Shown piece by piece: positions 30,262 to 63,399 of a stretch of DNA of 64,000 nt. The stretch comes from Haliotis rufescens. Taxonomy: Eukaryota. A program made the translations under genes and the position numbers. Position 1 is the first letter of the stretch, and each line of letters opens with the position of its first letter. The stretch lies in the NCBI RefSeq assembly GCF_023055435.1, contig NW_025963902.1:2667815-2731814 (forward strand), read 5' to 3'. Under the pieces are notes generated by a model, which did no database searches, was not told where the DNA came from, and saw only the letters and a list, made by a program, of their open reading frames with translations.

Positions 30262-30438
30262 CGTCGCCGAGCAAAAGTTTTAAGAAGTAGATGGTCACGT
30301 GACATCGATACAAACGTAACCGTAAAGGAAGCGGCAGCCATTTTGAAGTCCAAAGAGAGAATATTTTTCCGATCCTCTGACAGACGGCTGACAGCTTTGA
30401 ACATCACACGATCCTACTCCTACATCGACTACAGCAGC
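30262..30438 (+). CDS. Gene 1 exon 2 (polybasic plus N-glycosylation sites)
   Basis: Acceptor tgattgtgtatttcag|c and donor cagc|gtgagt. 177 nt, phase 0-0, no stop. Encodes RRRAKVLRSRWSRDIDTNVTVKEAAAILKSKERIFFRSSDRRLTALNITRSYSYIDYSS. Not in the ORF track because it has no Met. Confidence 0.4.
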
Positions 30439-38183: not shown

Positions 38184-38294
38184 GACATGGTGGTGACTAA
38201 AGCCTACGTGTCAGGGAGCCGGAAGTGCATCGTCCTCCCAGGAAATATCACCGAGGACTTCAATACCACCATGACTGACATACTGGCCAGGAAG
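38184..38294 (+). CDS. Gene 1 exon 3
   Basis: Acceptor ttctatttgctacag|g and perfect donor aag|gtgagt. 111 nt, phase 0-0. Encodes DMVVTKAYVSGSRKCIVLPGNITEDFNTTMTDILARK. Frame of track ORF 38175..38378. Confidence 0.5.
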
Positions 38295-40345: not shown

Positions 40346-40505
40346 AAACAGAGGTTGAATGAGACAGTTGAAATTGGCCAGTTTGCGATGACGTCAGACA
40401 TTGCCATGACCCCTCCGGAGAGAGAAGCCTTTCAGACTGCCAGTCCTTATCTTGCTAGGAAATGTCGCAACATGGATATCCTCAACGCAACAGCACCTGC
40501 GACGG
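40346..40505 (+). CDS. Gene 1 exon 4
   Basis: Acceptor ttcaccttttttt ctcag|a and donor cgg|gtgagt. 160 nt, phase 0 in and phase 1 out. Encodes KQRLNETVEIGQFAMTSDIAMTPPEREAFQTASPYLARKCRNMDILNATAPAT. Frame of track ORF 40205..40528. Confidence 0.5.
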
Positions 40506-40775: not shown

Positions 40776-40873
40776 ATATGACAGACATCCTGGATAAATT
40801 TCCATTGACTTTACTAACTGTCGGAGGAAGCGTCACCATCTACGTCAGTTCCACTTTACATGCCTTGTCATGA
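40776..40873 (+). CDS. Gene 1 terminal exon (hydrophobic C-terminus, stop TGA)
   Basis: Acceptor gtttttgcgtttcag|at. The phase-1 entry reconstitutes a GAT codon and continues the frame of track ORF 40679..40873: DMTDILDKFPLTLLTVGGSVTIYVSSTLHALS then stop. The MTDIL motif repeats that of exon 3. Confidence 0.5.
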
Positions 40874-45791: not shown

Positions 45792-45863
45792 ATGAATTCT
45801 CTTCTTCTTGCTACAGCTCTTGCTTGCCTGGGTCATGTTGTTTTGGCTCAAACAAGTCCTGCG
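45792..45863 (+). CDS. Gene 2 (novel secreted protein family) exon 1: signal peptide
   Basis: ATG then MNSLLLATALACLGHVVLAQTSPA, then donor gcg|gtgagt. 72 nt, phase 0. Confidence 0.5.
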
Positions 45864-46327
45864 GTGAGTTAATATATTTGCGTAATTTGATATTATGTAA
45901 AACATGTTCCATGGCATGATTGGCAGCAAATATTTAGGTTCAGTCATTAGAATGTTATAAAACTCAAACTATTTATATTTCAGAAAATACTGTAATTATA
46001 CAAAAACTGGTGTTGTATCTGACCACGGTGGACCTACAAGGACAATTAATGAAAGTTTCATCGTCATGTGCGTTACCGGGTCACTGGATGTTCTAGTCCA
46101 TCACTTGATTGTCACGATTGTTTACATGCAACCGTCGCATTGCAGTAGCATCACTGCTGTGGGAGTCAGGCAACAAGCACAATTGCTGTTTCATGCACAC
46201 TGTGTGTGGCGGATGCTTCCAGTATGGAAGGACATCAAGGATTTTCAATCATATAATTTTCACCGCGAAACTGTTTCAGCGTATAATCAAGACTGGTTAT
46301 TCTCTGCCATTGACGTTTTGTACGTAC

Positions 46328-46503
46328 AGTAAACTACGGTTATAACGAACACGCTTATAAAGAACTAACGGATATAACGAACTAACTTTTTAGTCCCGAC
46401 TATATGCTGTAGTTATGCTGTATATATGCTTATAACCAATTACGGTCATAACGAACTAAAATTAGTAGTCCCGTTGAGTTCGTTATAACCGTAGTTTACT
46501 GTA
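46328..46503. mobile_element. Stowaway-like (Tc1/mariner-type) MITE, about 176 bp
   Basis: 27-bp TIRs tacagtaaactacggttataacgaac / gttcgttataaccgtagtttactgta. TA dinucleotides flank both ends. Lies in gene 2 intron 1. Confidence 0.5.
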
Positions 46504-46519
46504 TATCTGTCCCTTGTGG

Positions 46520-46795
46520 GGACACGGGTGGCCCAGTTGTCAAAGGCAACGCAATTCGCTGTGTTGAGTTGCGTTCCTTGACCACGCCAGAAACCTATGA
46601 TTCTGGGTTCGGTTCCCGATTCGCCCAGATTATGTATCTAGGTTTGTCAATACCATACCCGTGCTCGTGGGTTTCACCAACGTGGAAACCAGCATCACTT
46701 CGGACTTTTCTCCCACATGAAGTTAATGGGCGTGATATAATTGGAATACGGTTCAAGGCGGTGATTAGCCTCACTCACTCACTCACTCACGCAAC
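46520..46795 (+). mobile_element. SINE family B copy in gene 2 intron 1
   Basis: gggacacgggtggcccagttgtcaaaggc ... cactcactcactcactcac. Confidence 0.55.
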
Positions 46796-46894
46796 GAGGT
46801 CAGAACATCTAAGCCATCGTTATCTTGGCGTTGAAAGTAACCTGGCGTTTAAAATAATAAATAAACTACATATTTCATTTTTTGCCTATTTCAG

Positions 46895-47059
46895 GCGAGC
46901 ATAAAGGCCTCATGGACTCGGGTCGTGACTCCAACCGTAACAGCAAAGGAAAGAGCCGTTATAGACGACGCTGCCCAGACCATCAAATTCGTCGCTCCAT
47001 CCAGGGCTCTGGCATCTGTCGGTCTGAAAAGCAACGCCGAGTATATTGAATACAACACG
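46895..47059 (+). CDS. Gene 2 exon 2
   Basis: Acceptor ttttgcctatttcag|g and donor acacg|gtacgt. 165 nt, phase 0-0, no stop. Encodes ASIKASWTRVVTPTVTAKERAVIDDAAQTIKFVAPSRALASVGLKSNAEYIEYNT. Homologous to gene 3 exon 2. Confidence 0.55.
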
Positions 47060-47296
47060 GTACGTGATTCGGGTATACTATGAGATGTATACAAAAGCGA
47101 ATGTGTTTCATCGGAAGAGGATTCCATATTGTTTAATGTCTATTTGATATGGACATATGTAGTAGACTGTGCTATATTATTGTCAGATGTACATATCACG
47201 GATGTTGATCTCAGTAAGCGACAACGTATCATAAACACACACTATTTACATCTTACTGGGAAGGTGATCGATAACTGGACTGCTCGTTACTTTCAG

Positions 47297-47410
47297 GAAA
47301 TGTTTGCTGTGAAACTTTTCGATCGGCCGGTTAAGACTTGTTTCATTTTCAACGGTACCAACGTGCTTGATACATTCTCCGCCACAAGTGCTGACTTGCA
47401 AGCCCGAGTT
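47297..47410 (+). CDS. Gene 2 exon 3
   Basis: Acceptor ctcgttactttcag|g and donor gtt|gtaagt. 114 nt, phase 0-0. Encodes EMFAVKLFDRPVKTCFIFNGTNVLDTFSATSADLQARV. Frame of track ORF 47129..47578. Homologous to gene 3 exon 3, also 114 nt. Confidence 0.55.
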
Positions 47411-47878
47411 GTAAGTTTTCAGTCATTACCGGTTCTGTTTGTTTTTTTCTCAAATATTCAATTGGCAAGAATGATACATGTAACAAATGTCATATTTGGG
47501 ATAACACTTTCTGAGTTAAGTACAGATTCCTTTTGGGTTGAGTCCCGTCCGGGATTCGAACCAACACCGCCAGAGTGAGGCAACTAATCGCCAGCACACA
47601 GAGTCAACGATCTAACCCACTCAGCCACCGAGGCCTCTACAAAATTGAAACTGGTAGTCTAGATCACGTACTTTGTGTACCCCTCTGACAAGTGTATGAT
47701 AAATACAAGAATGGTACATTTTACAAATATAAACATGATATTATGTCGGGATCATTGTGGGATTCTATTGGCACGCCCGCCCGCCCGCACACACTCGCTG
47801 TTTGAATCCCAGCTTGTTGTAAATGAAAAACAATGATAATTGTAGATAGAATAACTGTGACATATTTTTTAATTATAG

Positions 47879-48026
47879 CAAGTGAATCCAGTGATGGAGA
47901 AGCAGTTTATGACCCTGACAACGCCAATGGACGCAGCAAGTCAGGCCACCTTGATCACGGCCAATCCATTCATCGCAACAGAATGTGCAGCTGACACCTA
48001 CATTGACACGACAGAGTTGTCTGCAG
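47879..48026 (+). CDS. Gene 2 exon 4
   Basis: Acceptor ttttttaattatag|c and donor ctgcag|gtgaag. 148 nt, phase 0 in and phase 1 out. Encodes QVNPVMEKQFMTLTTPMDAASQATLITANPFIATECAADTYIDTTELSA(G). Read-through reaches a TGA at about 48058, so this could alternatively be a terminal exon. The downstream exon is unresolved. Confidence 0.45.
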
Positions 48027-48724
48027 GTGAAGCAATGTTGCAACGTGTCTTGTCTGCGTGAACAAGCGCCCTAACTCAATTTACATCCTTATAATTAAGT
48101 TGTCGTTGTGTGCATTGAAATCCCTGCATTCTGATTAACTGAATTGGTCACGTGTTATTGCATTCATTTCCCAATGAATGTAAACATTTAAGCCACGCCC
48201 ACCGAGGCGCACTACTTTTATTACTGCGGAATGTCGGGGAATCCCAATATTACAGTTGAGGGAATTTCCTTTCTGCTTACGTGTATCGCCATGCACAGGA
48301 CATTTAGCGACTTTCATGCATATTCATTGTCCAAACTACCCTTTGAAACCGAAGGCCGAGAATGAATGAAACAGCAAACGAACAGGCTCGCTCGCCTGTT
48401 TTTTTTCCGCTCACCCCGTTCAACTTTCATGTCTTCGGGTTTCATTTCTGACCAGCATTTTTCCTACTGTGTTTTACCGTAATCAGGGAAGTAATGTTTG
48501 AATGTGGCGGTAACTGACCATGTTATTTGAAACAGCCGCCTTCTCCCGGACATATTTCTTCTGGTTCTGACAGTCTGACTGTTGCAGTTCTTCTCGCCTC
48601 TTGCCATAATTGACAGGGCCAATGAACATTGTTTTGATCCTACTTTCCGTTGATTGGCTACTGACAGTGTAGGCGTGTCAAGTTGTGTGCATAAATTAAA
48701 CGATCCCCTGATTCATGTCACGCC

Positions 48725-48965
48725 AAAGTGTATATTCCTACACCTGGAATGTTTATCAATCTCGTCATTTTTGTCTGTTTTGATATATACAACTGTTTAT
48801 GGTTAAACTATTGTAGATAAAACATGTTATACGTTGTCGAATTTAATTATAAGCATTGACTGTATTTATTTCGGTTCAGTTCATTGAGGTATGAATCGAA
48901 AAACCGATGTGCGGATTCTTACAAATGTTTGCACATCGGTTTTTCGATTCATACCTCAATGAACC
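48725..48965 (+). repeat. Interspersed repeat, copy B, ending in a perfect 40-bp-arm hairpin (48880..48965)
   Basis: ttcggttcattgaggtatgaatcgaaaaaccgatgtgc ... gcacatcggtttttcgattcatacctcaatgaaccgaa. Confidence 0.45.
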
Positions 48966-49899
48966 GAAAATAATACACAGTCAATCCTTAAATGATTATT
49001 CTTCGGCTATTAATTTTACAGTTGGTGTCTAAAGTATAACCTTTAAAAACGTAGGGAGTACTCCATCATCCCGAGGCAAGAGAGTTAACTGACTTTAAAG
49101 TCCAGGTTCCACACTTGCCGAACTAGACTGGTATTATGGAGTTATATTTTGGCTGGACTATCGAGTCTGTGCATAGTCCAATCAAAATTGCGAAATGAAA
49201 TCGATATCCGGTTCGTAAACTGACGTGCAGATTTCGATCGATTGCAGGATTTGCAAAGCATGTGTACTGCCAACTCGGCGTCAACAGATATTTCCCGAAT
49301 CCTTTCAAGCTTTTAATCAAGGTTCTCTCGTGATTTGATGCACTTCGCGAAGTAAGACCCGTTTTATCACTTTTAATCTTGATTTTCGATAGGATCGTCT
49401 TGACTGGGCGCCTCCATTTTCTTTGAAGCAAATGCAAGTGATATGCGAGGTGGAATTTGATTGGTCAATAGTGGGGTTATCGGAGGGAAATAACTCGTAA
49501 TAGCCACTGGTGGCGCTAAGTTCGGCAAGGATGGAAACTGGACTTTAAGAGTCAGTTGACGCAGTTGCCTCGGAAAGATGGGGGTAACTTAATATTTCTA
49601 AATTGTGAGACACATTATTTTCTAGTAATAGTTGCATGATAAGAATAAACGAAGTGGGACCAGGTAGTGAAGTATGACAGTAGATGGTATGACTGCCAAC
49701 GATCTTGAAAGACGATATAGGTAAGATGGGAAATTTCAAAGTTGACGTTTTTGGATCAGTAGTGCGTAATACCGCCAAGATTTGTCAAAGATTCATTCAA
49801 TCGACGAGGCATACTGCCTCAACGTCTCCCAATGGAAATTTGGAAGTCTGTCTCATTCCTTTGCAACCCTTCGCCAAGTTCAGCTGACATGATCACCAG

Positions 49900-51050
49900 T
49901 TGACGTTGACGCACACGTCTCCTTATCGAGTCCTAGACGTGTTCAGTGGGGGACCATCTGGGCTCATTACTGGACATGGCTTTCTAGGGATGTTGTGCTG
50001 CTGGAGGTGAGCCTTGACGATTCGTGCACGGTGGGCATGGACGTTGACGTCCTGAAAGACAAAACGTCGACCCACACGTCTTGCAAACTGGACAACAAAT
50101 GGTGTCAGTATATTTTCCCGATAGTACTGTCCAGTGACCATTCCTTGCACGATATGAAGTGGAAGTGAATCGGAATTCATTTGAAAAGATGACACATGGC
50201 CAGCGACGATTACCCCAGTTTCGACGTGTAAACCATTGCCGTCTGTAGGCAATATGACGATTTGTAAGGGGCGACACAACACGTGGTCATCGAGCATGGA
50301 GACGAGCTGCATGTAGACGATTTCTAAGCGTGTGACCCGTAATTCGTACTCGAGTAGCGTGAAGAACGTTTGCAGAAATTTGATTCACCGTTTGAGCTCG
50401 ATTTCGAAAAGCCTGGACCGCCTCTGTGGCCTGGTGTTAGAACGTCCGCCCGGAGAGCGGAAGGTCTGGTGTTCGATCCTTGGCCGAGTCGTACTAAAAG
50501 ACGTTAAAAGATGGTACATGTTGTTACCCTGCCTGGCGCTAGGCATACAGCGGGTAAAACAAGGACTGGTTGGCTCGGAGTCAGTATACTGTGTCTGAGT
50601 GAGTTATTCATGATAAACTGTGGCATGGTATCTCAGTGGGCAAGCACTATACAATCGGCATTAGTCCGGACTAGTACAAGCAGCCGCACCCCAACACCCA
50701 CGTACACGCACATCGCTATATAAGTGCAACAATTTTAAACGCGATGTTAAACACCATTTCACGTCACCTCACCTCGCAGAGCCTGGTTTTGGACCAATCG
50801 ATAACATTGTCGTCAACATGGGACACCCTGAACGTGGTTGATCGTCGACATTTATGGTATGTTGATACCTTTTCCATGGTCCGCTATTCCCAGACTGTGA
50901 AACATTGAACGTATTGGCCACAGCACGCTGACGTCTGTCTGTTTCAAGCAAGTTAATTGCACGTAGGCGCTCTGCGCGTTGCAGACACCGCATCGCCAGT
51001 TCAAACACAAACAAAGAATGAAAATCAAGTAAATCACAAGTGTATGATAG
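49900..51050 (-). mobile_element. Tc1/mariner relic split by a SINE D insertion
   Basis: ORF 50769..51014(-) carries the N-terminal motif VDDQPRSGCPMLTT. ORF 49923..50312(-) carries degenerate C-terminal transposase similarity (FVFQDVNVHAHRARIVKAHL). SINE D at 50420..50777 sits between them. Confidence 0.45.
50420..50777 (+). mobile_element. SINE family D copy inserted in a Tc1 relic
   Basis: Matches family D full length. Confidence 0.55.
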
Positions 51051-51410
51051 GCAGAATTAATAACATTCACAGAAATAATAGCCCAAAGAGATAAATCGAC
51101 CTTCCTTGAAAGTGTCAAAATCACGAATGACACTCTTCTCACGTGTGTGGCGCTAAGTACTGCGTGAGGCATGTGCAAACTATCGGATGTGTTTTGGTGT
51201 GATGTTTTAAATTCATAAACGTTCTTGCATTGGATGTTTGTCGTCAACACGTATCCTTGTTCTTATACTTGGTATAAACATTTATATTTCTTTATCCCCT
51301 ACTTTTTATAAAGATATTTTTTTATAATAACCATTTGATACTATTAAGCTTAAGTATAAGGCACACGGTGTGGTCTTATGTTTAAGTCTTGGTCTTAAAA
51401 GATGAGATTC

Positions 51411-51670
51411 GTGAAGATCCGGGGTAGAATAGTTCTTCAGCAACCCATGCTTGCCATAAAAGGCGACTATGCTTGTCGTAAGAGGCGACTAACGTGATCG
51501 GGTATCAGGCTCGCTGACTTGGCTGATGCATGTCATCGTATCCCAATTGCGTGGATCGATGCTCATGATATCAATCACTGAATTGTCTGGTCCAGACTCG
51601 ATTATTTACAGACCGCCGTCATATAGCTAGAATATTGCTGAGTGCGGCGTTAAACAACAAACAAACAAAC
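51411..51670 (+). mobile_element. SINE family C, full copy
   Basis: cgtgaagatccggggtagaatagttcttcagcaacccatgcttgcc ... (caaa)n. Confidence 0.55.
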
Positions 51671-52689
51671 ATTTCTTAATAGATGCCTTTGTATATTATT
51701 TGATGACTTGATGTCATTTTATTACAAACTGTATTGAATACGTGCATACTATTTGATGAAGACAATTTCAATTAGAAGATAGTGTTTAGGACTCAATGTG
51801 ATCATAATACTAATTGTCTTGAATGCATGTTTCCTACATGCTGATAATGCTCTTGACAGCATGCATACTATTTGTATACGAAAATCTTTTTATAATGGTG
51901 TTCCAGGGTCCACTGCTCCCGCTAACAGTGAAGTTGTGACGTTCCCGACGCTGTGGGGCAAACTAACGCTGTACATCCTGTAGGCAGCTGGTTCCGCCCT
52001 CATCTGCCTCGTGGTTTTGGAAAATATCCCTTCATGATGTGTACTAATGAACATAATAAAATATCTGAGTACGTTTTCGTGCTCAGCTTCAGCATGAAAT
52101 ACCTACGATGTCAAGTACGCTTTGGACCGTGCTCAACGCTGAGTTCGATATCAACAATGGCAGCTCACCTGCGTCAGACTCGACACACCACTTCCTTTTA
52201 TTTCTGCAAACAAAAGTTGTTCTCGTTGGACCACCTCCTGGACAAGACACACTTCCTCCGCCTGTGACCAACCCTTACATCGCCTTCTTGACTCGGGCAT
52301 GCTCTACGTTGCCATTGGAAATAATCAGACGACAACAGTCGGGTTGTTTTCCTACCTTTCTCGACGGAAGAGTTCAAAATTGCCGCTTGTGTCATAAACA
52401 AAGAGTACTTTGAGCATGCTCAAGCCGAGCGTGAGTTGTGCTCAGCTGAGTACAGACTCAAGATGTTTTATAACCTCTGCTTGAGTCCAAAACTCAACTG
52501 AGTACGAACATGAGCACGAGCATGAATTTGAGCATGAAACTGAGTTGAGCACGAATTGTTTTATAACCTCGGGGCCAGGTCTTCAACGTGACGTGATTTA
52601 CCTTGGCTAAGCCATCGCGCAATGTCTTTGAATATCTTGAATTTGATTGGTCATGTCACAGTAACACTCTTCTACGTGAATTCTATATA

Positions 52690-53490
52690 ATGTAGATACA
52701 TATAATGTAGATTAAATAATGTAGATACATATAATGTAGATATAAATAATGTATATATCAATAATTTAGATTCACATAATGTAGATACACATAATGTAGA
52801 TACATATATCATAGACACACATAATGTAGATACACATAACTCTAGATACACATAATGTAGATACACATAATGTAGATATGAAGAATGTTGATACACATAA
52901 TGTAGATATAAATAATGTAGATACACATAATTTAGATACACATAATGTAGATACATATATTATAGATACATATATTATAGATACACATAATTTAGATACA
53001 CATTATGTAGATATAAATAATGTAGATACACATAATGTAGATACATATATTATAGATACATATATTATAGATACACATAATTTAGATACACATTATGTAG
53101 ATATAAATAATGTAGATACACATAATTTAGATACACATAATGTAGATACACATAATGTAGATACACATAATGTAGATACACATAATGTAGATATGAATAA
53201 TGTAGATACACATAATGTAGATACACATAATGTAGATATGAATAATGTAGATACACATAATGTAGATATAAATAATGTAGATACACATAATTTAGATACA
53301 CATAATGTAGATACATATATTATAGATACATATATTATAGATACACATAATTTAGATACACATTATGTAGATATAAATAATGTAGATACACATAATTTAG
53401 ATACACATAATGTAGATACACTTAATGTAGATATGAATAATGTAGATACACATAATTTAGAGACATATAATGTAGATGCACATAAAGTTG
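52690..53490. repeat. Minisatellite, 15-bp unit (cacataatgtagata) with roughly 105-120-bp higher-order periodicity
   Basis: ORFs 52878..53522(+) and 53065..53316(-) show 5-aa periodic peptides (NVDTH / YLHYV). Confidence 0.7.
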
Positions 53491-53559
53491 TGAAAAATAC
53501 TTCTCAGAAAGGAATATCATAAGTGAGCCAGCACAACTTGGGCTATGTTCCCCTGTATG

Positions 53560-53935
53560 GGTAATTTCTACCGATAAGGATAAGTATGGATAATTTCTAC
53601 TGCTATGGATAAGTATGGATAGTTTCTACCGATCGATATGGATAAGTATGGATAATTTCTACCGATAAGGATAAGTATGGATAATTTCTACCGCTATGGA
53701 TAAGTATGGATAATTTCTACCGCTATAGATAAGTATGGATAATTTCTACCGCTATGGATAAGTATGATATTTTCTACCTATAAGGATAAAGTAATGCTAA
53801 TTTCTACCTATAAGGATAAAGTATGGATAATTTCTACCGATATGGATAAGTATGGATAATTTCTAACTAAAGGATAAAGTATGGAGACGTTCTACCGATA
53901 TGGAGAAGTATGGATAATTTCTACCGATGAAGGAA
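53560..53935. repeat. Minisatellite, roughly 29-bp unit (ggataagtatggataatttctaccgctat), about 13 copies
   Basis: Directly visible tandem copies with variants. Confidence 0.65.
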
Positions 53936-55878
53936 TCCAGTTTTGTTCAAAGTCACACTCAAATACACTCGGCACAGGGATAAGTTACAACATTTAGGTG
54001 GCAGCCTGAAGGTGAAGAGTACACCATTTCCAAGGCATACCGCCAAGGGCGCTCTCAAAAATTGGTTTATGCTGACGGCTTGAATTTTTTTATATACGAC
54101 AGATATATTTTTCCAGAATTTAATTGCCCATAATTACGGGTGCAAATAACTCACGAGTGCGTATTATACACGAATAAATACGTCTTGTGTACATTGATCA
54201 ATCGGAAGGGGTGCTAATGGGATTGTTCACTAGCCAATATATCAGCAAATATTGCTGTGGGCTCTTTTTTGAGCGGGGCGCATATTACGTCGAATACGGT
54301 AGTAGTGTCAAAGTTATGTTTCCTATTTTAATGATCTTCACAGCAACATAACATCAATGCACTGAAAACTTAAAGGGAAATGAAGGTAGTTCTGAGTTAA
54401 TGTGCTTCTAAAATCGCATAATAAAACAAATAATACATAATAACGGATATATTTTAGTTTAGTTTTAGAAATCTTTCGATATGACTAGCACTTTAAACCA
54501 CTGGATTGGTAATTAAATTTATCATGTGTGACGCCAAGACCATTCTTCTGTGACATGTGAAGACGTTTGATGAAAGTTCTACTGATAACTGAAACCAGTT
54601 TCAATACACAGCCCAAGCATAATCACCACATGCACCAGCTTTGACCAATCCATCCCCATGTCGCCCAACCTCACTGCATACAACGTGATAACAAAGCTTC
54701 ATTTAATCCGTACACAGAGAGATATTGCTGGGTCCAGCAAAAGTACCACTAAATGCCTGTCTCAAAAATAAGCCATTATACTGAACTCAATCAAAAAAGG
54801 TCTTTTTTATATTCGCAATAAATATTTGAGTCAAGTGGAATCAATACAATGTGGAATCCCATAAACTCACAGGATTTGCTGGACCACTTTTGCAAAATCA
54901 GCACAAAACAGGTTCAATTCTGTGAACCCTTTTGATTCTTCAACTGCGCCCACCTATAATTCCACATGACAAACTTAAGAGAAATCTTCCTACCTTAACC
55001 CATGGGACATGGGGTAATATTTTTTAATTTGACGTTAACACGATATACGGCTTTTCCATTGGACGAGAGGTCGGTCACATGACCGCGAAATTGACGTTCA
55101 TAAGTGTATGAACGGCACAATTTGGCGTTCATACGACTTTTTCACAAGACCGTGTTCTTGAAATGACGTAAACACTGACGTACTACCTACACATTCTTTG
55201 GGGAACCCCGAGGAAGTCCCTAGCTCAAATACTAACAGAAGCGCTCTTTCTGACCATTTGGACCCTTTAGTCTTGAACTCAGCGTTTTAATATACATTGA
55301 GAAACGTCAGAGAGTTTAAATGCATGATCCTTCTATGAATTTACCTTAGTGTCTATTTGACACATTATAATCACTTTTCAATGATCGGCCCATTTGTTTA
55401 ATGATGACGAAAGCATGTAACCGCCACAGGTTCATAAACCACTCGAAATCTCTTCCGTCACGTTTATCGTGTCGACCACTTTGACATCTTGTACTTGATG
55501 TACATGTTTTACGTAATGCATTGTCATTCTGACTGATTTATTGACGTAGCTCTTGACAGACCTTTCTCATCAAATGGTGATACTATTTGAATAATGTGTT
55601 GTGTCAAATGTTTCTGAAGAGCAATGTGTGCATACATCCGCTAATGTCACCTCTCTATTTGGGGAACTATATTATTCCTCGATAAAACTGGTTGTTGTAT
55701 GGCTGTCAGTGTAAACATGAAGTCACACGCACTAAATAAAATTGTGCATGGATCCAGGCCTATATCCTTTGAGGTAACAACATGTGATACAAAATGATAA
55801 GAATTGACTTTCACTTTGTGTGAGTCATTTCCTAACTAAGAGTCGTGACCAAAGATACAGTTGCAGATCTATCTTCAG

Positions 55879-56044
55879 AGTGAGTGAGTGAGTATGGTTT
55901 TACGCCGCTTTTAGCAATATTCCAGCAATATCACGGCGGGGGACACCAGAAATGGGCTTCACACATTGTACCCATGTCGGGAATCGAACCCGTGTCTTCG
56001 GCGTGACGAGCGAACGCTTTAACCACTAGGCTACCCGACCGCCC
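55879..56044 (-). mobile_element. SINE family A, full copy
   Basis: Reverse complement of the 16298 copy with high identity. Confidence 0.6.
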
Positions 56045-57124
56045 CTCTATCTTCAGAGGTTCAGGACAGTTTGTCAAAATTGAAAGCAAATGCCATCTGA
56101 AGGTTACTGAGAAAACAATATGTGATATGCTGGATTTCCTCATAAATAAAATCTATCTATGTATCTATGTACCTAGGTAAGACATTTAAGCTAAAGGTAG
56201 GCATCCCCATGGACACCAAGGGTACTCCCCTTCTTGCTGATCTGTTTTTTTCTCTATGATATGAATCGGCATTTCTGCTCTGATTGGCAAAGTTAAACCA
56301 AGGTGATGAGGCCAAGAAGTTTAACTTAAGCTGCAAGTATAACGATGATCTGATACCGTTCAGTTACTTTCAAGGTGCCAATTCCCTTCCATTGATTTAC
56401 CAACCAGACCTAGAAATAAAGGAGACCAGTGAGACGGCATCGTGTTTCATATTTAGATCTATGCTGATAGATTGAGGATGATAAAAATCTATCCACAAGG
56501 CTGTATGACGAGAGGGATTACCCCAACTTTCCAACGGTCAACTTTCCCTTTATGTCAAACAGTATTCGACCATCTCCGGCCCTTGGTGTCCACATGTCAC
56601 AACTTTTGGGGTGCAATGGAGCATGCTCTTTCTACTAAGATTTCAAAGAGCGTCATACGACTCTCGATCAAAGGTTGTTTGATCAAGGTTACAAGGTTTG
56701 TTCACTAGAGTGAGTAGTAGCGAGAATATTCAATCCTGGACAAGCAGTCAAACACTTTGATTTGTTTTGTTGTCTGGTTTAAAATCAAAGTAATGGAGTT
56801 ACAAGTTTGTTGTTATGGTTGATGCATTACTCAGTCACTCAGTCACTCATCTCACGGTCACCCAGTCACTCATCTCACGCCTCTCTTATTCCTCTAAGTG
56901 CCTTTGTACTGGATATACTTTGTCAAATGTAAAACAAATTGGCTCAGGGACTGCCTCGTATCACATAAAGGTACAAAAGAAATACACAGAGCTGAGCGAT
57001 CACATTTCTTTATTCTGAAGACATACACGATGATGTGGACAGCTTTTAAGGAGGGGTGGCAGTGGTGGTTGTCACAAGACCAGTTGACCGAAGGATGTAG
57101 AGATGCACAGTCCCCCACGAGGTG

Positions 57125-57400
57125 AAAAAAGTGAACTTATCACTTGCAGCTGGGGGAGGGGCTCCTGAAAAATGGACATCATCATCAACATTCATCATTA
57201 TCATTAAACAGCTTCATCAACAACAACATCGTCATCGACAATCATCATTAACATTGAACCTCTTCATCAACAACATCCTAATTAACAATCATCATTATCA
57301 TTAAACATATCCATCAACAACAACAACATCGTCACCAACAATCATTATAGTCAATAAACACCACCATCAGCAACAATCATCATTATCATTAAACACCAAC
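57125..57400. repeat. CAT/CAA-rich cryptic repeat with roughly 60-bp periodicity
   Basis: atcatcattatcattaaacagcttcatcaacaacaacatcgtcatcgacaatc-like units about four times. Confidence 0.5.
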
Positions 57401-57616
57401 AAAAGTAAATAAAAGTTAGTAAATCGACAATAAGCCCCTACAATTATCCACATCATCATCTTTTCAAGTATTCATCAACATCATAAGGAATCAGTAGCAG
57501 CCACAAATTCATCTGCACGAATCTCAACCATCACACGTGAATATCTTGACGCACTTACAAAATCGATGACAGGAAAATAAAGTATACAAAATAAATAAGA
57601 CAATACACTATTACCT

Positions 57617-57773
57617 GCGGCCATTTCGGTGGTCGCCACGTAGTTGTTTCTTCTGTCGGAACACTTCTTTTGAATGAAGGGATGTTTCAAATTGAAGGCA
57701 CTTTGACTGGTTGCGTTCATGACAGATCCAGCTGTATGGTAGCTTTTCTCCACAGTCGTGTTTAACAATGTCT
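57617..57773 (-). CDS. Gene 3 exon 4
   Basis: Acceptor cataatttcag|a and donor gcag|gtaata. 157 nt, phase 0 in and phase 1 out. Encodes TLLNTTVEKSYHTAGSVMNATSQSAFNLKHPFIQKKCSDRRNNYVATTEMAA(G). Aligns with gene 2 exon 4 and has the same phase. Confidence 0.5.
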
Positions 57774-58323
57774 GAAATTATGAAAGTAGTAAAGATTATA
57801 TACCACAATAATGTTCGTTAAGACAGTTCACTTATCTGTCGTCAGAAGCAAGGCTTAAATGTGTCTGCTGTAGATAACATGCTGTTGTGACGAACACAAC
57901 ATTATAAAAAAAACTTTTTAAGTCAGGAAATACTTGTCAGTGAGTGTTACAGGTAACGTCGCGCTATATTTCAGCCATACAACAGAGGCCTGAAAATAAA
58001 CTAGACCATACAATACGAAGACCCGCAATGAAACCTTGACATTGAACATCAACACCCGTTCCATCACGAGTGAGTGAGTGACTGAGTGAGTGAGTGAGTG
58101 AGTTATGGGTAACATATTTCAGATGGGAGTGGGGGGCTTCTTTCTGTAGCATAAAAAAACATCGAACTAAATCATGTTTGCAAAAACAACTGACTAATGT
58201 TTCACCCTCACACCTGTTTTATTTTAAACGCAACCCATTTTCCAAACAGCTGCTACTCTACACAATCTGCCCCACCCAAACACTTTTCCACCAAGCTGTA
58301 TCCGAGTGTGGCCATTACTTACA

Positions 58324-58436
58324 AGCGCCTGCAAAGCGGTGCTTGTTGCACTGAAGGTACCGATAAGGGCAGGGACGACGTCGAGAAGGAAGCACGTTCT
58401 ACCAACATCCCTTTGAAGCTTTGCTGCCACCTTAGC
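58324..58436 (-). CDS. Gene 3 exon 3
   Basis: Acceptor atttattttcag|g and perfect donor ctt|gtaagt. 114 nt, phase 0-0. Encodes AKVAAKLQRDVGRTCFLLDVVPALIGTFSATSTALQAL. Aligns with gene 2 exon 3 (KTCFIFNGTNVLDTFSATSADLQA). Confidence 0.55.
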
Positions 58437-59613
58437 CTGAAAATAAATAACAAAAAGAAGATGGTTTACCTACAGATTAGGTATTGGGAGAGACGTGTCA
58501 CATTCAATGAGTGAACATATAGTTGTGACCGTGACAGTATATTCCAGCAACATTAATAATCGAGTGAAACGATACACAACGAACTAAATAACAATTTATC
58601 TTCACTGGTTGGCTCATACCACAAGAATTGAACTGGGGATACTCTTCACGAAATCAGGACACGCTGCGCCCTCTGATCCAAATTCAGTATAGCAAATAAT
58701 TTGTTCCTAATCTTTAAGTGATCTACTGACCGTATTGTCAGTTCGTGGTGTTATACTGCAGTGTAATTTATTGTTAATCAGTGTGCAATTTTACTATATT
58801 GATTCTGCTGAGATTCAGCAGAAGTTCATAGCATTATGTTTTGACAATAATTGGTTGTCTGGAATGTGGCACTATTTAATGTAAGCAGTGGTGTGGAAGT
58901 TACTATATTTAGACGCTTTTTGGAGTTAGATGTAACCTAGAATGTTCTAGAACAGCTGGAGTAATCCAACATTGTACAGAACCTTCCAGGAGGTTTTAGA
59001 CAATATTATGGGGCACGAGCATGTCTCTATCATCTGACATTACATGTCATATTACATCAAGACCAGCTGTTGTCTGAAGATAGTATTTATACCCTGGATA
59101 TCTATTTTGTAAGCTTGACCACTGTTGCTACTAGCCGAATATTACTATCACTGAATTTCTTCTTTCACCACTACTATCGTATTTAATGGTGCCATTGTTA
59201 ATCTACTGCCATTGATTTTTGTACTTCCACTCTATTGTGTACGGCATTTGTAGTAATTTGTATTGATTTGTAAACCTATTTAATTTTAATATACAATTAT
59301 ATGTCATTTCCTTATTGTTTGTTGGTTTTACATTGAATACTTATACGCATAGATTTCTGTGTTAGCGTATTGTTTTAATTTTGAATTCGACACGTAACAG
59401 TTGAAGTAAAAAAAAAAAGGAATCAACAAAAATTCTTTTGGAAAAACGTCAAAGGCTTGATTCCCTTTCCTTACTGTTTCACATTGAAGTTTAGAATCAA
59501 ATAAGATGAGCTAAAAGAATCGTCGGTAAGAATACAAACAACAACAAAAACTGTTATGTATTTAATCTTATTTCACTTCTTTGAATTTTTGGTAATTAAA
59601 ACCAACGCCTTAC

Positions 59614-59781
59614 ACTGCTGTAATCTGTGTAGGTGCGGCTCCTAGCGATGCCAGTTCCGACCAGCTCCCTGCTTCTGGAGCTAAAGCTGATGCCGGAGTC
59701 AGCATTCCATATGTACGCACTCTGGGTGACATTAAGCGTGTCGCTCACTACCCGCAACCACTTCGCCCTTATGGCACCTTC
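59614..59781 (-). CDS. Gene 3 exon 2
   Basis: Acceptor ccttgtttcag|g and donor agt|gtaagg. 168 nt, phase 0-0. Encodes EGAIRAKWLRVVSDTLNVTQSAYIWNADSGISFSSRSRELVGTGIARSRTYTDYSS. Frame of track ORF 59596..59790 (-). Aligns with gene 2 exon 2. Confidence 0.5.
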
Positions 59782-59879
59782 CTGAAACAAGGTTATTTTA
59801 CGTAAGTGTTAGTTTACACCGTTGGCATCAGTTTATTTCTCCGAATAACCACCAACGGTGCTACAAGAGTTTACCACCC

Positions 59880-60200
59880 AAAACTGACTCCCACAGAAGA
59901 TGGCGTTTGGGTGAGATCAAGTGATATCTACATTGTAGATATCGCTGCAATGAAATGGCATCACAATGCTTTGGAGACCATTGTGACGTCATGGGTTACC
60001 ACTAATGGCTCTGGTACTGAAGCTGTTAGCAGTACTTGTTACACTTAAGACACTGCTTATTAATGTCCACAAACTGTAAAAGTTGAAAGAGTGATGTTTG
60101 ATGATAAATTAAATCTCACCCTCGTGTCTTTTGATATCAAGTATATCAACACTCGTTGATAAAAGTGGAAAATCGCCTTGGCAAGCCTCAGGGCTTTTTC
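59880..60200 (+). mobile_element. Same hairpin-ended repeat family, copy 3 (second hairpin arm truncated)
   Basis: ORF 59806..60048 shares ..IAAMKWHHNALETIVTSWVTT.. The hairpin first arm is at 60113..60170. Lies in gene 3 intron 1. Confidence 0.4.
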
Positions 60201-60547
60201 CACTTTTAACACTCTCTCTATACAACATATACTATGTATTCAATGAGGATGAAGATAGTAACATGCTTTAATGAGTGAGTGAGTTACACGTCACATCGGC
60301 ATTATTTCAGCCATACACCGACCAATAAGTGATGTAGCCACTTCAACATAATTAATGTATATAAATGTACAATTAATCTGGACAGATGTTTCAGAGTGGA
60401 TATAGATTTAGGTGATAATGTTTCACGTAATTTACACGTTTGGACAGATATAACAATTCTTTGAGATATAAACAGCCATACCCACAGCAGTCTGTATATA
60501 GTTGTGTCTGTGACAGGCAAGCTAAACACGCCGTCACGAAGACATGC

Positions 60548-60655
60548 TCATTATATTAATCACTGGATTGTCTGGTCCAGACTCGATTATTTACAGACCG
60601 CCGTCATATAGCTGGAATATTGCTGAGTGCGGCGTTAAACAACAAACCAAAAAAA
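60548..60655 (+). mobile_element. SINE family C, 3' half
   Basis: atcactggattgtctggtccagactcgattatttacagaccgccgtcatatagctggaatattgctgagtgcggcgttaaacaac. Confidence 0.45.
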
Positions 60656-60668
60656 TCCTTCAGTATAC

Positions 60669-62690
60669 GACCGCCTCCGTGGTCTAGTGGTAGAGCATCC
60701 GCCCAGAGAGCGGCAGGTCCGGCGTTCAATCCCCGACCGCGACATACCAAACAACGTTAAAAAATGGTACTTGTTGTTACCCTGTCTGGCCCTCGGCATT
60801 AAGGGGCTAAAACAACGACTGGTCGGTCAGTAAACTGTGTCTGAGTGGAGTATTCATGTTAAACTGCGGCATGGTATCTAGAGGTGTAACGATACGGGAG
60901 GGTCGCGATACGATACGTATCCCGATACAGGGGTCGCGATACGATACGTATCACGATACAGTGTTTACTGGTACAAGCTAAGCCAAGTTGCTGTCTTTCT
61001 GCTATCTAAAATATGTGACAAGTACAGTTGAAGAAGATATAAGGTGTTTATTTACTGTTATAGTAAATTGTCAGCAATACAGTATGTTTTACTGAAACAA
61101 CAAACTGGCTTTGAAACTGTTAAAGTATTTCATGGGCGCACACACACCCCACCCCCACCCACCCCAACACACACACACCTTTCTATTTAGAAAAAAATCT
61201 TTATTTCTGTATAAATTACCACCAAAGACAATAATAAATAGATCTTAATTGTGCACCCCCCCTTTTCAAAAAAGCTGTATCCGCCCATGTATTTCATCTA
61301 TTTTCTTGAGTATAGTGCGCACCGATGTATAATGCGCACGCCCCTCTAGCGGGTTCAATATTTTGGAAAAAAAGAAATATGAATATTATGCGCAGAAAAA
61401 AATTACACCGTACCCCTTCAGCGAAGTCCGGCAAACGAACGGGTGATGAGAAACTTCGTTAGTACAAATTCGAAATTTGAGATAAAAAATCACCAGACAT
61501 GTTGATTTACCGTTTAAATTGTATTTTTTGTTCAGCTAGGCATTGTTTTATATCCAGGGATTAAGATTACCTTGTGTATTTTCTCGTAAACTAAGCCGGA
61601 CACAGCAATCAGCTGTACATGTACACACGTTTTCTTGGAATCTACCGGTGATTCGGGCAAGACACACCCAATGATATAACTTTACAGTATTTTAATGCAA
61701 GGATCGGCAAAAGTTGTATCTAAAACTATTTTTTTATCAGGAATAATATATTCCAATATATTGTTAATTTAGATGCAGCTTTTACTAAACATATTTAAAA
61801 TAATAATAACCCTAAGCGAAGCAGCTGATCGCTATTGCCGGGTATTATTTTTTACATGGAACCAGTCTGACCAGACACCGTTAAGGCTCCCGTGCACGTG
61901 ATCGCGTGATCGCGAGAATTATGTGTTGACATATAATCGTCCAACAAAAACAAATCTGACTTTTAACGAATCAAAGTATGGCATTTATGATATATGTATC
62001 CATTCTCTGTCAACTAAAATTCCTTTCAAGGCGTCAATAGCGGTAATCTGACCGGGGGTTGCTGTTAATAACGGTGAGTTGTGCGATCTTCCGATCGCTT
62101 CACACACGATTTCGCCGAAATTAATTATAACAATATTAAAAGGAATTTTGAATAAAATTAATGAAATAAGTTACAAACATGAGTCCAGATATTCAAAGAA
62201 CACTTTTTTTATAGCCAGACAGTGTAATTACATGAATAATTTGCGAACTTCAGTATGGATTTGTTGACATGGTATTTCCGGGGTTACGTGCTCACGGTAA
62301 TGTCTTTCCATGGGGGAAAAACATCAAAACTCATTAATTCGTGTACAATGAGCAACCCCTTCTACACAGCTGTGTTTTTTAGGAAAAAAGTGCGCACTAT
62401 ACTCAAGAAAATACGGTAGGTATAACTGCTGTTATGAAAATACATGCGATATATGCTTTCCAAATCGATGCATCGTATCGTGGGCTGTGCATCGGGATAC
62501 AATACTGTATCGCCGTATCGTTACACCACTAATGGTATCTCAGTGAGCTAGCACTATAAATCGACATCAGCTCGGACTAGTACAAGCAGCCACACACACG
62601 TGCATGCATGTCGCTATATAATTGCAATAATCTTGGACACGTCGTTAAACCCCATTTCACCACACCTCATCTCCTTCAGTATACTCTGCA
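60669..62690 (+). mobile_element. SINE family D copy disrupted by the hAT copy 2 insertion
   Basis: The two SINE halves join exactly across the hAT element plus its 8-bp TSD. Lies in gene 3 intron 1. Confidence 0.6.
60879..62531 (-). mobile_element. Nonautonomous hAT-like DNA transposon, copy 2 (1653 bp), inserted into a SINE D copy
   Basis: Same TIRs in inverse orientation. Perfect 8-bp TSD atggtatc. Internal sequence is near-identical to copy 1: track ORFs 34728..34916(-) and 62079..62267(+) translate identically. It splits the SINE D at 60669..62690. Confidence 0.7.
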
Positions 62691-62713
62691 TTATCTTGCA
62701 CGCTAAGACTTAC

Positions 62714-62786
62714 CAGTCCCGCCCACTGTGTACAGCCATTTGCCACCAGACACACGAATACCGCGAGGCAGGGAACGTAACTCATG
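62714..62786 (-). CDS. Gene 3 (paralogue of gene 2) exon 1: signal peptide
   Basis: Minus-strand ATG then MSYVPCLAVFVCLVANGCTQWAGL, then donor ctg|gtaagt. 24 codons, phase 0, the same length as gene 2 exon 1. Confidence 0.45.
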
Positions 62787-63399
62787 ATGTCAAAGCGTTT
62801 TTCCAACCGGTAGATAAACTCAGAACTTCTCAAGTGGTTGTCGATGACAACTGATGTGACACAACATGGACTGCTCTTTTATAGTGTTTAAATGCGTCAC
62901 TGATTTAATCCTTGCCATGAATGTCATTGGAAATGTGACAGACAAGAGCAACTAAAACCACAAGAATTTCATTTGAAATAATTCCTATGTTTTATTTTTT
63001 AACGACAACTGGTCTATATTTTGACCTACAGGACATAGCACGGCTCATAGATTCAGCGTAGGTTGGTGAACAAACTTATGCTAAACATAACGGAACCCTA
63101 AATCTTGCTGACAAATGATGTGTGCCAGATGTTTGCACACGTGACCGGGATGTTGAATACATAAATAAACGTATTTCATAAGATTCACTTGGAAACATCA
63201 GTAACATAAAGTAATACATGATTCATCTCATGCAACTTATGAAACGTATATATTTTCAAACTTTTGGCAGCTTGATAACATTAATATAAATTTCAGTAAT
63301 TGATGACATAATACACCATATGTATAACAATTCAAACAGATCAGTAATTACGAACAACTTTATACGATCTAGCGGCCCAGGCGTTTATAAAAATACACA

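What the first reader, a model, noticed from the sequence alone, without database searches (positions are those of the whole stretch)
45792..62786. Convergent inverted paralogue pair encoding an unrecognised secreted-protein family
Gene 2 (plus strand, exons 45792-45863, 46895-47059, 47297-47410, 47879-48026) and gene 3 (minus strand, exons about 62786-62714, 59781-59614, 58436-58324, 57773-57617) share exon structure. Both have a 24-codon signal-peptide exon, and exons 2-4 have matching lengths (165/168, 114/114, 148/157 nt) and identical phases. Peptide similarity is clear, for example VKTCFIFNGTNVLDTFSATSADLQA against GRTCFLLDVVPALIGTFSATSTALQA, and PFIATECAADTYIDTTELSA against PFIQKKCSDRRNNYVATTEMAA. 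The two genes point at each other across about 9.6 kb, which suggests an inverted tandem duplication. I cannot assign the family, so it is a candidate lineage-specific secreted protein. The 3' terminal exons are unresolved in both copies. Gene 3 has a candidate last exon at about 57128..57000 (tccatttttcag|ga, Thr/Pro-rich, stop, then an AATAAA).
Basis: partly seen in the sequence, partly recalled or inferred. Interest (0 to 1): 0.7.

Follow-up and report, generated by a model that had tools for sequence, protein, structure and literature searches.

The report
Abalone UP6 shell-protein gene cluster
The two facing genes are real paralogues, part of a cluster of three red-abalone genes of the already catalogued but uncharacterised shell-matrix protein family UP6, and that family looks like a very divergent, gastrokine-like member of the BRICHOS anti-aggregation chaperone superfamily.

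Summary
Gene 2 (+) and gene 3 (-) are intact five-exon genes with identical intron phases, and their products are 38% identical (BLASTP E=1e-30). Both missing terminal exons were found: 51907-51983 for gene 2 and 57164-57047 for gene 3. A third, more divergent paralogue lies at 29325-40873 (+).

The family is not unrecognised. Genes 2 and 3 are identical to RefSeq "uncharacterized protein 6-like" proteins of Haliotis rufescens. Gene 3 is 69% identical to UP6_HALAI, a protein identified by mass spectrometry in the H. asinina shell. The gene order and the inversion are conserved in H. cracherodii.

Two points appear new. First, sequence relatives exist in Patella, Littorina, Physella and Elysia, so the family is gastropod-wide. 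Second, it is probably a BRICHOS-type domain:
- the profile-profile match has P=1.4e-4, with the hallmark acidic residue and both cysteines aligned;
- the AlphaFold secondary structure (pLDDT 84) follows the extended BRICHOS core plus a C-terminal beta-hairpin;

This is suggestive rather than proven. No member reaches Pfam's threshold, and the top structural hits are ependymin/LolA-like folds. A chaperone role is inferred only. Interest is moderate.

The parts
29278..29284 (+). TATA box of gene 1 (TATAAAT). The RefSeq start codon of the near-identical LOC124128149 overlaps it.
29325..29405 (+). Gene 1 exon 1: signal-peptide exon, 27 codons, phase 0.
30262..30438 (+). Gene 1 exon 2: N-terminal beta-strands of the domain. 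The family HMM gives E=1.8e-9.
38184..38294 (+). Gene 1 exon 3: contains the first conserved Cys.
40346..40505 (+). Gene 1 exon 4: helix with the second conserved Cys; ends in phase 1.
40776..40873 (+). Gene 1 exon 5: linker plus C-terminal beta-hairpin, stop TGA. The whole product is 208 aa.
45792..45863 (+). Gene 2 exon 1: signal-peptide exon, 24 codons.
46895..47059 (+). Gene 2 exon 2.
47297..47410 (+). Gene 2 exon 3.
47879..48026 (+). Gene 2 exon 4 (phase 1 at its end).
51907..51983 (+). Gene 2 exon 5, newly located: linker plus hairpin GSTAPANSEVVTFPTLWGKLTLYIL, stop TAG. The 191-aa product is identical to XP_046353862.2.
52055..52060 (+). AATAAA polyadenylation signal of gene 2.
57009..57014 (-). 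AATAAA polyadenylation signal of gene 3.
57047..57164 (-). Gene 3 exon 5: linker plus hairpin plus Thr-rich tail, stop TAA. It is 100% nucleotide-identical in H. cracherodii.
57615..57771 (-). Gene 3 exon 4.
58323..58436 (-). Gene 3 exon 3.
59614..59781 (-). Gene 3 exon 2.
62714..62785 (-). Gene 3 exon 1: signal-peptide exon, 24 codons. The 209-aa product is identical to RefSeq 'uncharacterized protein 6-like' of H. rufescens.
62877..62883 (-). TATA box of gene 3 (TATAAAA), about 95 nt upstream of the ATG.

Best explanation
The window comes from Haliotis rufescens (red abalone). It carries three members of a small gene cluster of the UP6 family: gene 1 (+, 29325-40873), gene 2 (+, 45792-51983) and gene 3 (-, 62785-57047). 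UP6 proteins are secreted, N-glycosylated proteins of about 190-210 aa. The H. asinina orthologue has been detected in the calcified shell.

All three genes share one layout. Exon 1 encodes the signal peptide. Exons 2-4 encode a domain of about 140 aa. Exon 5 encodes a Pro/Ala-rich linker and a strongly beta-prone hairpin of about 18 aa.

The cluster arose by tandem and inverted duplication before H. rufescens and H. cracherodii separated. The copies have since diverged in charge (mature pI 9.8, 4.9 and 9.8) and in evolutionary rate.

My best reading of the domain is that it is a very divergent BRICHOS domain, closest to the gastrokines. It has the extended core b1'-b2'-b1-b2-b3-b4-a1-b4'-a2-b5, an acidic residue at the end of b2, and a Cys in b4 paired with a Cys in a2. 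The C-terminal hairpin takes the place of the aggregation-prone 'client' peptide that BRICHOS domains keep soluble.

Inferred, not shown: the protein acts in the mantle secretory pathway or extrapallial space as a holdase for beta-prone segments (its own tail or other matrix proteins). It is then trapped in the prismatic shell layer.
For: Gene models and family:
- Genes 2 and 3 are identical to RefSeq proteins of H. rufescens.
- Gene 3 is 69% identical to UP6_HALAI, whose sequence is that of EST ML5B8.
- The paralogues are related at E=1e-30 (genes 2 and 3), 1e-17 (genes 1 and 2) and 8e-17 (genes 1 and 3), with the same five exons and phases.
- The shell MS/MS peptides NYNYLATTELTAGAAPPPASDK and FTVFTTWGK span the exon 4/5 junction and enter the hairpin.
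- H. cracherodii is collinear, with the order g1>, g2>, <g3, <P0003.

BRICHOS assignment (hypothesis written down, before testing):
- Pfam BRICHOS is the only match of the Patella member, covering model positions 5-90 of 91 at the predicted place, E=0.16.
- hhalign of the 20-sequence family against four verified human BRICHOS domains scored 33.0, P=1.4e-4, probability 53%, with the acidic residue and both Cys aligned.
- 300 column shuffles gave a mean score of 10.2, sd 1.7, maximum 16.8, and the reversed alignment scored 10.4.
- Against GKN1 alone P=1.1e-3, and the matched stretch 56-146 coincides with Pfam's BRICHOS 56-149.
- The family HMM ranks the gastrokine-1 orthologues above 2220 shuffled decoys.
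- The AlphaFold2 model has pLDDT 83.9 and pTM 0.78. The order of its elements equals the extended BRICHOS core plus C-terminal hairpin described in PMC9714404.
- An ependymin profile gives only the null score of 12.3, P=0.52.

Constraint on exon 5: in gene 3 it has 0 changes in 118 nt between the two species, against about 7% divergence in exons 1-4.
Against: - No family member reaches Pfam's BRICHOS threshold (best 12.7 bits against 25). The family consensus sequence did not hit BRICHOS at all.
- HH probabilities are only 20-53%. Single subfamilies other than gastrokine give P=0.03-0.24.
- The hallmark Asp is Glu in gene 2 and in several relatives, and Gly in one.
- There is no proprotein-convertase site before the hairpin, and the hairpin has no cysteines.
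- I could not inspect the model coordinates. The Cys-Cys distance and the docking of the hairpin were therefore not checked.
- No expression or functional data exist for H. rufescens. In H. laevigata UP6 is only a minor shell protein, so its presence in the shell could be incidental.
Confidence: 0.65

Rival explanations
1. The domain is a very divergent ependymin-related or LolA-like fold, a half-barrel with a hydrophobic pocket. On this reading UP6 would be a lipid or hydrophobic-ligand carrier related to the ependymin-type shell proteins (Sometsuke/ML1E6, 6G3) found in the same prismatic layer.
For: - The top Foldseek PDB hits are EPDR1 structures (E=0.05-0.4, probability up to 0.98).
- The mature size is similar, about 185 aa.
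- Abalone ependymin-related shell proteins contain a similar 'IYDYKKGIAY...C' motif.
Against: - Profile-profile comparison with an ependymin alignment (human and mouse EPDR1, ML1E6, 6G3) is at noise level: score 12.3, P=0.52, probability 0.1%.
- Pfam Ependymin is not hit by any member.
- The structural alignments cover only 73-101 residues, with TM 0.25-0.33 and rmsd 3.2-4.3 A.
- UP6 has two conserved Cys, not the multi-Cys pattern seen in the ependymin alignment.
Confidence: 0.1
2. UP6 is a gastropod-specific orphan family with no true homologue elsewhere. On this reading the BRICHOS-like motif and topology are convergent or a chance resemblance.
For: - The profile search of 1.84 billion representative proteins found only 10 proteins at E<=1e-3, all gastropod.
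- There is no Pfam hit above threshold.
- HH probabilities are at most 53%.
- The fold-search scores are all in the grey zone.
Against: Several separate lines agree on the same family and the same register:
- the Pfam sub-threshold hit spanning the full model;
- the hhalign score far above the shuffled and reversed controls;
- the three hallmark residues aligned;
- the same order of ten secondary-structure elements plus a C-terminal hairpin;
Confidence: 0.2
3. The hydrophobic C-terminus is a GPI-anchor signal that is removed. Alternatively, as in annelid arenicin-type BRICHOS precursors, it is a beta-hairpin antimicrobial peptide that is cleaved off.
For: - Gene 2 ends exactly after a moderately hydrophobic stretch (VVTFPTLWGKLTLYIL), preceded by small residues (SAGS).
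- Invertebrate BRICHOS precursors of beta-hairpin antimicrobial peptides are known (PMC9714404).
Against: - Peptides from the shell protein of H. asinina cover the linker and the first hairpin strand. The C-terminus is therefore retained in the extracellular, shell-embedded form.
- In gene 3 and its orthologues the hairpin is followed by a polar Thr-rich tail, which does not fit a GPI signal.
- There is no dibasic cleavage site.
- The hairpin has no Cys and is not cationic.
Confidence: 0.03

Closest known systems
UP6_HALAI (Uncharacterized protein 6; EST ML5B8) of Haliotis asinina, and the RefSeq 'uncharacterized protein 6-like' models
   Same: - Gene 3 is 69% identical over all 209 residues.
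- Genes 2 and 3 are identical to the H. rufescens RefSeq models.
- Length, signal peptide, two Cys and C-terminal hairpin are the same.
   Different: Nothing essential differs for gene 3. Genes 2 and 1 are divergent paralogues, 38% and 30% identical to gene 3. Gene 2 is acidic and lacks the Thr-rich tail. The literature treats UP6 as domain-less and Haliotis-only.
Gastrokines (GKN1/2/3), secreted BRICHOS proteins of vertebrate gastric mucosa
   Same: - The architecture and size match: a signal peptide, N-terminal strands, a BRICHOS core and a beta-prone C-terminal segment, about 185 aa in all.
- This is the best profile match (P=1.1e-3 for GKN1 alone).
- The gastrokine-1 orthologues are the top hits of the family HMM.
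- Both are secreted by an epithelium.
   Different: - Sequence identity is only about 15-18%, and Pfam's threshold is not reached.
- In GKN1 the C-terminal segment contains Cys, whereas the UP6 hairpin has none.
- Any functional parallel is untested.
BRICHOS superfamily in general (proSP-C, BRI2/ITM2B, tenomodulin, OAF; Pfam PF04089)
   Same: - The order of secondary-structure elements of the extended core is the same.
- The acidic residue at the end of b2 and the Cys(b4)-Cys(a2) pair are present.
- There is an N-terminal signal and a C-terminal hairpin.
- The strength of evidence is similar to that used to add OAF to the family (HHpred E=1.6e-4 to 0.015; PMC9714404).
   Different: - There is no furin-type cleavage site, and the hairpin apparently stays attached.
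- Asp is replaced by Glu in some members.
- The family is restricted to gastropods.
Ependymin-related shell proteins (Has-Sometsuke/ML1E6, 6G3) and EPDR1
   Same: - They occur in the same shell layer in H. asinina.
- The size is similar.
   Different: - There is no profile similarity (P=0.52).
- The cysteine pattern is different.
- There is no Pfam Ependymin hit.

Membership tests
UP6 shell-matrix protein family (UP6_HALAI) | Significant full-length sequence similarity to UP6_HALAI | tested here: met
   Gene 3 matches P0004 (UP6_HALAI) at 69% identity, 100% coverage, E=2.4e-89. Gene 2 matches gene 3 at E=1e-30, and gene 1 matches genes 2 and 3 at about E=1e-17.
UP6 shell-matrix protein family (UP6_HALAI) | Secreted: N-terminal signal peptide | tested here: inconclusive
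   All three products start with a hydrophobic stretch (mean Kyte-Doolittle 1.4-2.0 over the first 20 residues). SignalP was positive for ML5B8 in PMC2989941. No signal-peptide predictor was available here.
UP6 shell-matrix protein family (UP6_HALAI) | Protein present in the calcified shell matrix | not testable with these tools
   This has been shown only for H. asinina (two MS/MS peptides) and H. laevigata (minor protein). There are no data for H. rufescens or for the gene 1 and gene 2 paralogues.
BRICHOS (Pfam PF04089) | Match to the Pfam model above the gathering score (25 bits) | tested here: not met
   The three... window products of genes 2 and 3 gave no hit. The best hit in the family is the Patella member at 12.7 bits, E=0.16, model positions 5-90 of 91. 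The family consensus gave no hit.
BRICHOS (Pfam PF04089) | Profile-profile similarity to bona fide BRICHOS domains | tested here: met
   hhalign scored 33.0, P=1.4e-4, probability 53%, against four human domains. Shuffled controls reached at most 16.8 in 300 trials. Against GKN1 P=1.1e-3, and against the 8-sequence core alignment P=6.3e-4. The result is significant but not overwhelming.
BRICHOS (Pfam PF04089) | Fold: b-sheet core b1'-b2'-b1-b2-b3-b4, a1, b4', a2, b5 (PMC9714404) | tested here: inconclusive
BRICHOS (Pfam PF04089) | Conserved Asp at the end of b-strand 2 | tested here: inconclusive
   The position is Asp in gene 3 (D77) and gene 1, and Glu in gene 2. It is acidic in 17 of 18 family members, Asp in 11.
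BRICHOS (Pfam PF04089) | Two conserved Cys, one in b4 and one in helix 2 (disulphide) | tested here: met
   C95 and C155 are invariant in 20 of 20 sequences. They lie in strand 94-99 and helix 149-158 and align with the BRICHOS cysteines. The bond itself could not be checked.
BRICHOS (Pfam PF04089) | C-terminal beta-hairpin 'mature' peptide preceded by a proprotein-convertase site | tested here: not met
   A hairpin is predicted with confidence (178-184 and 189-195; block means of pLDDT over residues 171-200 are 88-94). However, the linker AAGAPPPAASDK has no basic cleavage site, and shell peptides span it.
Ependymin (EPDR1-like, LolA-like fold) | Sequence-profile similarity and the conserved cysteine pattern | tested here: not met
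GPI-anchored surface proteins | C-terminal hydrophobic signal that is removed at an omega site | tested here: not met
   MS/MS peptides from the shell protein cover the linker and hairpin. In gene 3 the hairpin is followed by a polar Thr-rich tail.

The most novel reading that the evidence does not exclude
UP6 proteins are a gastropod-specific branch of the BRICHOS chaperones that has been recruited to shell building. On this reading they keep beta-prone, silk-like or Gln-rich matrix proteins (or their own tethered hairpin) from aggregating until deposition. That would link anti-amyloid chaperoning to biomineral matrix assembly. The fast-evolving gene 3 would be tracking fast-evolving matrix clients.
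Probability: 0.2. Interest if true: 0.65.

Novelty: new member of a known kind. Interest (0 to 1): 0.38.

Why it matters
UP6 is one of the abalone shell proteins that two proteomic studies left as 'no homology, no domain, Haliotis only'.

If the BRICHOS assignment holds, it gives the family a testable biochemical role: binding beta-prone peptides and preventing their aggregation. It would also extend the family to other gastropods, and it would add a non-cleaved, cysteine-free hairpin variant to the BRICHOS superfamily.

The three linked paralogues differ in charge (basic, acidic, basic) and in evolutionary rate (dN/dS 0.08, 0.54, 1.17). That makes them a compact case of divergence after duplication in the shell-forming secretome.

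The gene cluster itself is already annotated, so the finding as written is largely ordinary.

Tried and rejected
- Pfam scans of the window proteins, of 18 family members and of the family consensus gave no hit above threshold. The consensus gave only a spurious rotavirus VP6 match at E=0.003-0.006.
- The profile search of PDB sequences gave only a chance hit to a poxvirus protein, E=0.66.
- The first AlphaFold2 run, with 7 close sequences, was poor (pLDDT 52). Only the 20-sequence alignment gave a usable model.
- AlphaFold-database fold libraries were not available.
- The third word-index search was swamped by Arg/Gly-rich tails and added only two relatives.
- The GPI-anchor idea for the C-terminus was rejected because of the shell peptides.
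- The ependymin relationship suggested by Foldseek was rejected at sequence level.
- hhalign against single BRICHOS subfamilies (OAF, ITM2, proSP-C) was not significant on its own, with P=0.13-0.24.
- Looking up the window's own locus failed.
- ARAGORN found no tRNA in the window.

Full report
**1. Checking the observation**

Gene 2's four stated exons have AG/GT boundaries and an open frame. Gene 3's coordinates were 1-2 nt off. The corrected exons are 62785-62714, 59781-59614, 58436-58323 and 57771-57615. With these the frame is open and every boundary is AG/GT.

BLASTP of the four-exon products gives 35% identity over 143 aa, E=6e-25. A tblastn of each product against the whole window finds the partner's exons as the best non-self hits.

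**2. Completing the genes**

The same tblastn found a match to gene 3's proposed last exon at 51906-51992 (+). With the acceptor at 51906|51907 the phase-1 junction closes correctly. It gives ...ELSA-G-STAPANSEVVTFPTLWGKLTLYIL*, with an AATAAA 72 nt further on. It has a TAA stop, and an AATAAA follows at 57014.

The full products (191 and 209 aa) are identical to RefSeq proteins of Haliotis rufescens named 'uncharacterized protein 6-like'. The window is therefore red abalone and both models are right. The stop codons face each other across 5.06 kb.

**3. A third paralogue**

An HMM of the family, run on the six-frame translation of the window, found further exon-like pieces on the + strand. 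They lie at 30244-30471 (E=1.8e-9), 38166-38375 and 40193-40525, in the right order.

Reading the DNA gave a complete five-exon gene: 29325-29405, 30262-30438, 38184-38294, 40346-40505 and 40776-40873. It has the same phases, all AG/GT boundaries, and a TATA box at 29278. Its 208-aa product matches genes 2 and 3 at E=1e-17 and 8e-17.

It differs at 9 residues from RefSeq LOC124128149, so a further near-identical copy exists elsewhere.

**4. What the family is**

Gene 3 is 69% identical over its full length to UP6_HALAI. The supplement of Marie et al. 2010 (PMC2989941) shows that this is EST ML5B8. It is a 209-aa protein with 'no homology, no recognised domains'. It was found in the acid-soluble matrix of prism+nacre but not of nacre alone, in a 32-kDa band against a theoretical 21 kDa. 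Two peptides identified it: NYNYLATTELTAGAAPPPASDK and FTVFTTWGK.

Mann et al. 2018 (PMC6003135) found the H. laevigata homologues as minor prismatic-layer proteins. They noted that UP6 matched only the H. asinina data set.

The two shell peptides also matter structurally. They span the exon 4/5 junction and run into the C-terminal hydrophobic segment. That segment is therefore kept in the extracellular protein. This removes my initial idea of a GPI signal.

**5. Distribution and neighbourhood**

A profile search of 1.84 billion representative proteins found only ten proteins at E<=1e-3. They are further Haliotis paralogues plus Physella acuta, Elysia chlorotica and Patella caerulea. A word-index search added Elysia crispata and Littorina saxatilis. 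The family is therefore gastropod-wide but, at this sensitivity, not seen outside gastropods. Some relatives carry long Arg/Gly-rich tails.

The H. cracherodii scaffold JAJLRC010000011.1 is collinear with the window at about 91-94% nucleotide identity. The gene order there is g1>, g2>, <g3 orthologue (P0002), <P0003. There is also a 4.7-kb insertion between g2 and g3 carrying two ORFs, which is absent from the window. The inversion therefore predates the split of the two species. The fourth copy should lie just past the window's end.

Between the two species dN/dS is 0.08 for gene 1 (exons 2-5), 0.54 for gene 2 and 1.17 for gene 3 (26 of 209 residues differ). Yet gene 3's exon 5 has no change in 118 nt, against about 7% divergence in exons 1-4. 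Mature pI is 9.8, 4.9 and 9.8, and the sequon counts are 6, 1 and 3.

**6. What the domain is**

The motif Y-(D/E)-Y...A.KL...C-F-L...P-F-I...C...Y, followed by a beta-prone tail, reminded me of BRICHOS domains. I wrote that down before testing it. The tests were as follows.

- **(a) Pfam.** The Patella member's only Pfam match is BRICHOS, covering model positions 5-90 of 91 at the expected place. The score is only 12.7 bits (E=0.16) and no other member hits.
- **(b) Profile-profile comparison.**
  - I verified the human proSP-C, ITM2B, GKN1 and TNMD sequences by exact look-up and by Pfam, then compared profiles.
  - The family scored 33.0 against the four domains, P=1.4e-4, probability 53%, with 84 aligned columns and the acidic residue and both cysteines in register.
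  - 300 column shuffles gave 10.2 +/- 1.7 (maximum 16.8) and the reversed alignment 10.4.
  - Against GKN1 alone P=1.1e-3, and the matched stretch 56-146 equals Pfam's BRICHOS 56-149.
  - An eight-protein core alignment gave P=6.3e-4.
  - Single subfamilies other than gastrokine were weak.
  - The family HMM ranks the gastrokine-1 orthologues above 2220 shuffled decoys.
- **(c) Structure prediction.** With 20 sequences AlphaFold2 gave pLDDT 83.9 and pTM 0.78.
  - The strands are 28-37, 40-49, 54-59, 72-77 (ending at D77), 82-87 and 94-99 (containing C95).
  - A helix follows at 108-117, then strand 126-131, helices 138-158 (containing C155) and strand 161-167.
  - A linker and a hairpin (178-184 and 189-195) complete the model.
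  - This is element for element the extended BRICHOS core (b1', b2', b1-b4, a1, b4', a2, b5) with a C-terminal hairpin peptide, as described by Sanchez-Pulido and Ponting 2022 (PMC9714404).
- **(d) Fold searches.** The PDB results are equivocal.
  - Foldseek ranks EPDR1 first (E=0.05), with Bri2 BRICHOS at E=1.1.
- **(e) The ependymin alternative.** It fails at sequence level. hhalign against human and mouse EPDR1 plus the two abalone ependymin-type shell proteins scores 12.3, P=0.52.

Of the five family features listed in PMC9714404:
- the signal peptide is present;
- the Cys pair is present;
- the acidic residue is present as Asp or Glu;
- the hairpin is present but has no cysteines;
- the convertase cleavage site is absent.

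I therefore call the domain BRICHOS-like and probably homologous, with about 0.65-0.7 confidence. It should not be filed as a Pfam-level member.

**7. How it probably works**

Shown or directly supported:
- Three intact paralogous genes are present.
- The products start with a signal-like sequence.
- The orthologue is an extracellular, probably glycosylated protein of the shell's outer layer, with its C-terminal hairpin attached.
- The hairpin exon is under strong constraint.

Inferred from the BRICHOS analogy:
- The domain shields a beta-prone segment, either its own tethered hairpin or segments of other matrix proteins, during secretion and before deposition.

Not shown:
- any chaperone activity;
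- any effect on mineral;
- expression of the three genes in H. rufescens.

**8. Verdict**

The family is already known by name, and the pair is part of a larger cluster.

The added value is the resolved gene models, the third copy, the gastropod-wide distribution and a probable BRICHOS assignment. I found no paper linking BRICHOS to mollusc shell matrix. Interest is moderate.

Noticed in passing
window 29283-29327: RefSeq's models of the near-identical LOC124128149 start 14 codons upstream (MFKAGSVVTSSHTT...). In the window that ATG lies inside the TATAAATG box. Starting there would bury the signal peptide, so the ATG at 29325 looks like the true start.
   Followed up: partly
window 29325-40873 compared with P0016: The window's gene 1 differs at 9 residues from RefSeq LOC124128149 of the same species, while genes 2 and 3 are identical to their RefSeq proteins. 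This implies another, roughly 95% identical gene-1-like copy elsewhere on the scaffold. H. cracherodii shows the same thing: the copy in L001 is not P0007.
   Followed up: partly
window 57047-57164 and 51907-51983, compared with L002: Exon 5 (linker plus hairpin) is 100% nucleotide-identical between H. rufescens and H. cracherodii in both gene 3 and gene 2. Gene 3's other exons differ by 5-7% and evolve at dN/dS of about 1.2. Either constraint is very strong or there is gene conversion among the copies.
   Followed up: partly
window 22096-22623 (-) and 49923-50312 (-): These look like remnants of Tc1/mariner-type transposases. The first hits Pfam DDE_3 (E=5e-8). The second lies inside intron 4 of gene 2 and looks similar by eye, but has no Pfam hit.
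   Followed up: partly
window 30549-31213, 38362-39196, 57176-57388, 52687-53934, 24567-26194: Large minisatellites:
- 48-mer x14 in gene 1 intron 2;
- 41-mer x20 starting about 70 nt after gene 1 exon 3;
- 50-mer x4 in gene 3 intron 4;
- 15-mer x53 and 29-mer x13 between genes 2 and 3;
- a 55-mer x30 array with strong strand skew at 24.6-26.2 kb.

Several create long spurious ORFs.
   Followed up: no
L001 16691-21425 (H. cracherodii): A 4.7-kb insertion between the gene 2 and gene 3 orthologues carries two intronless ORFs (287 aa coiled-coil; 337 aa). It is absent from the H. rufescens window, where the flanks join near 52452. It may be a non-LTR retrotransposon, but Pfam gave only weak coiled-coil hits.
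   Followed up: partly
window 18713-19189 (-): A Cys-rich ORF with a thrombospondin-type-1-like motif (WESWGVWSSCTRTCAGVRTRTR) suggests an exon of another secreted-protein gene upstream of the cluster. It has no Pfam hit at E<=0.01.
   Followed up: no
window 47520-47640 (intron 3 of gene 2): This stretch resembles a tRNA-derived SINE on the reverse strand. ARAGORN calls no tRNA anywhere in the window.
   Followed up: no
P0009, P0013, P0012, P0020, P0021 (relatives outside the window): Several family members carry long Arg/Gly/Pro-rich, highly basic low-complexity extensions. In Haliotis paralogues these precede the domain. In Elysia and Littorina they follow the hairpin. The window genes lack them.
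   Followed up: no
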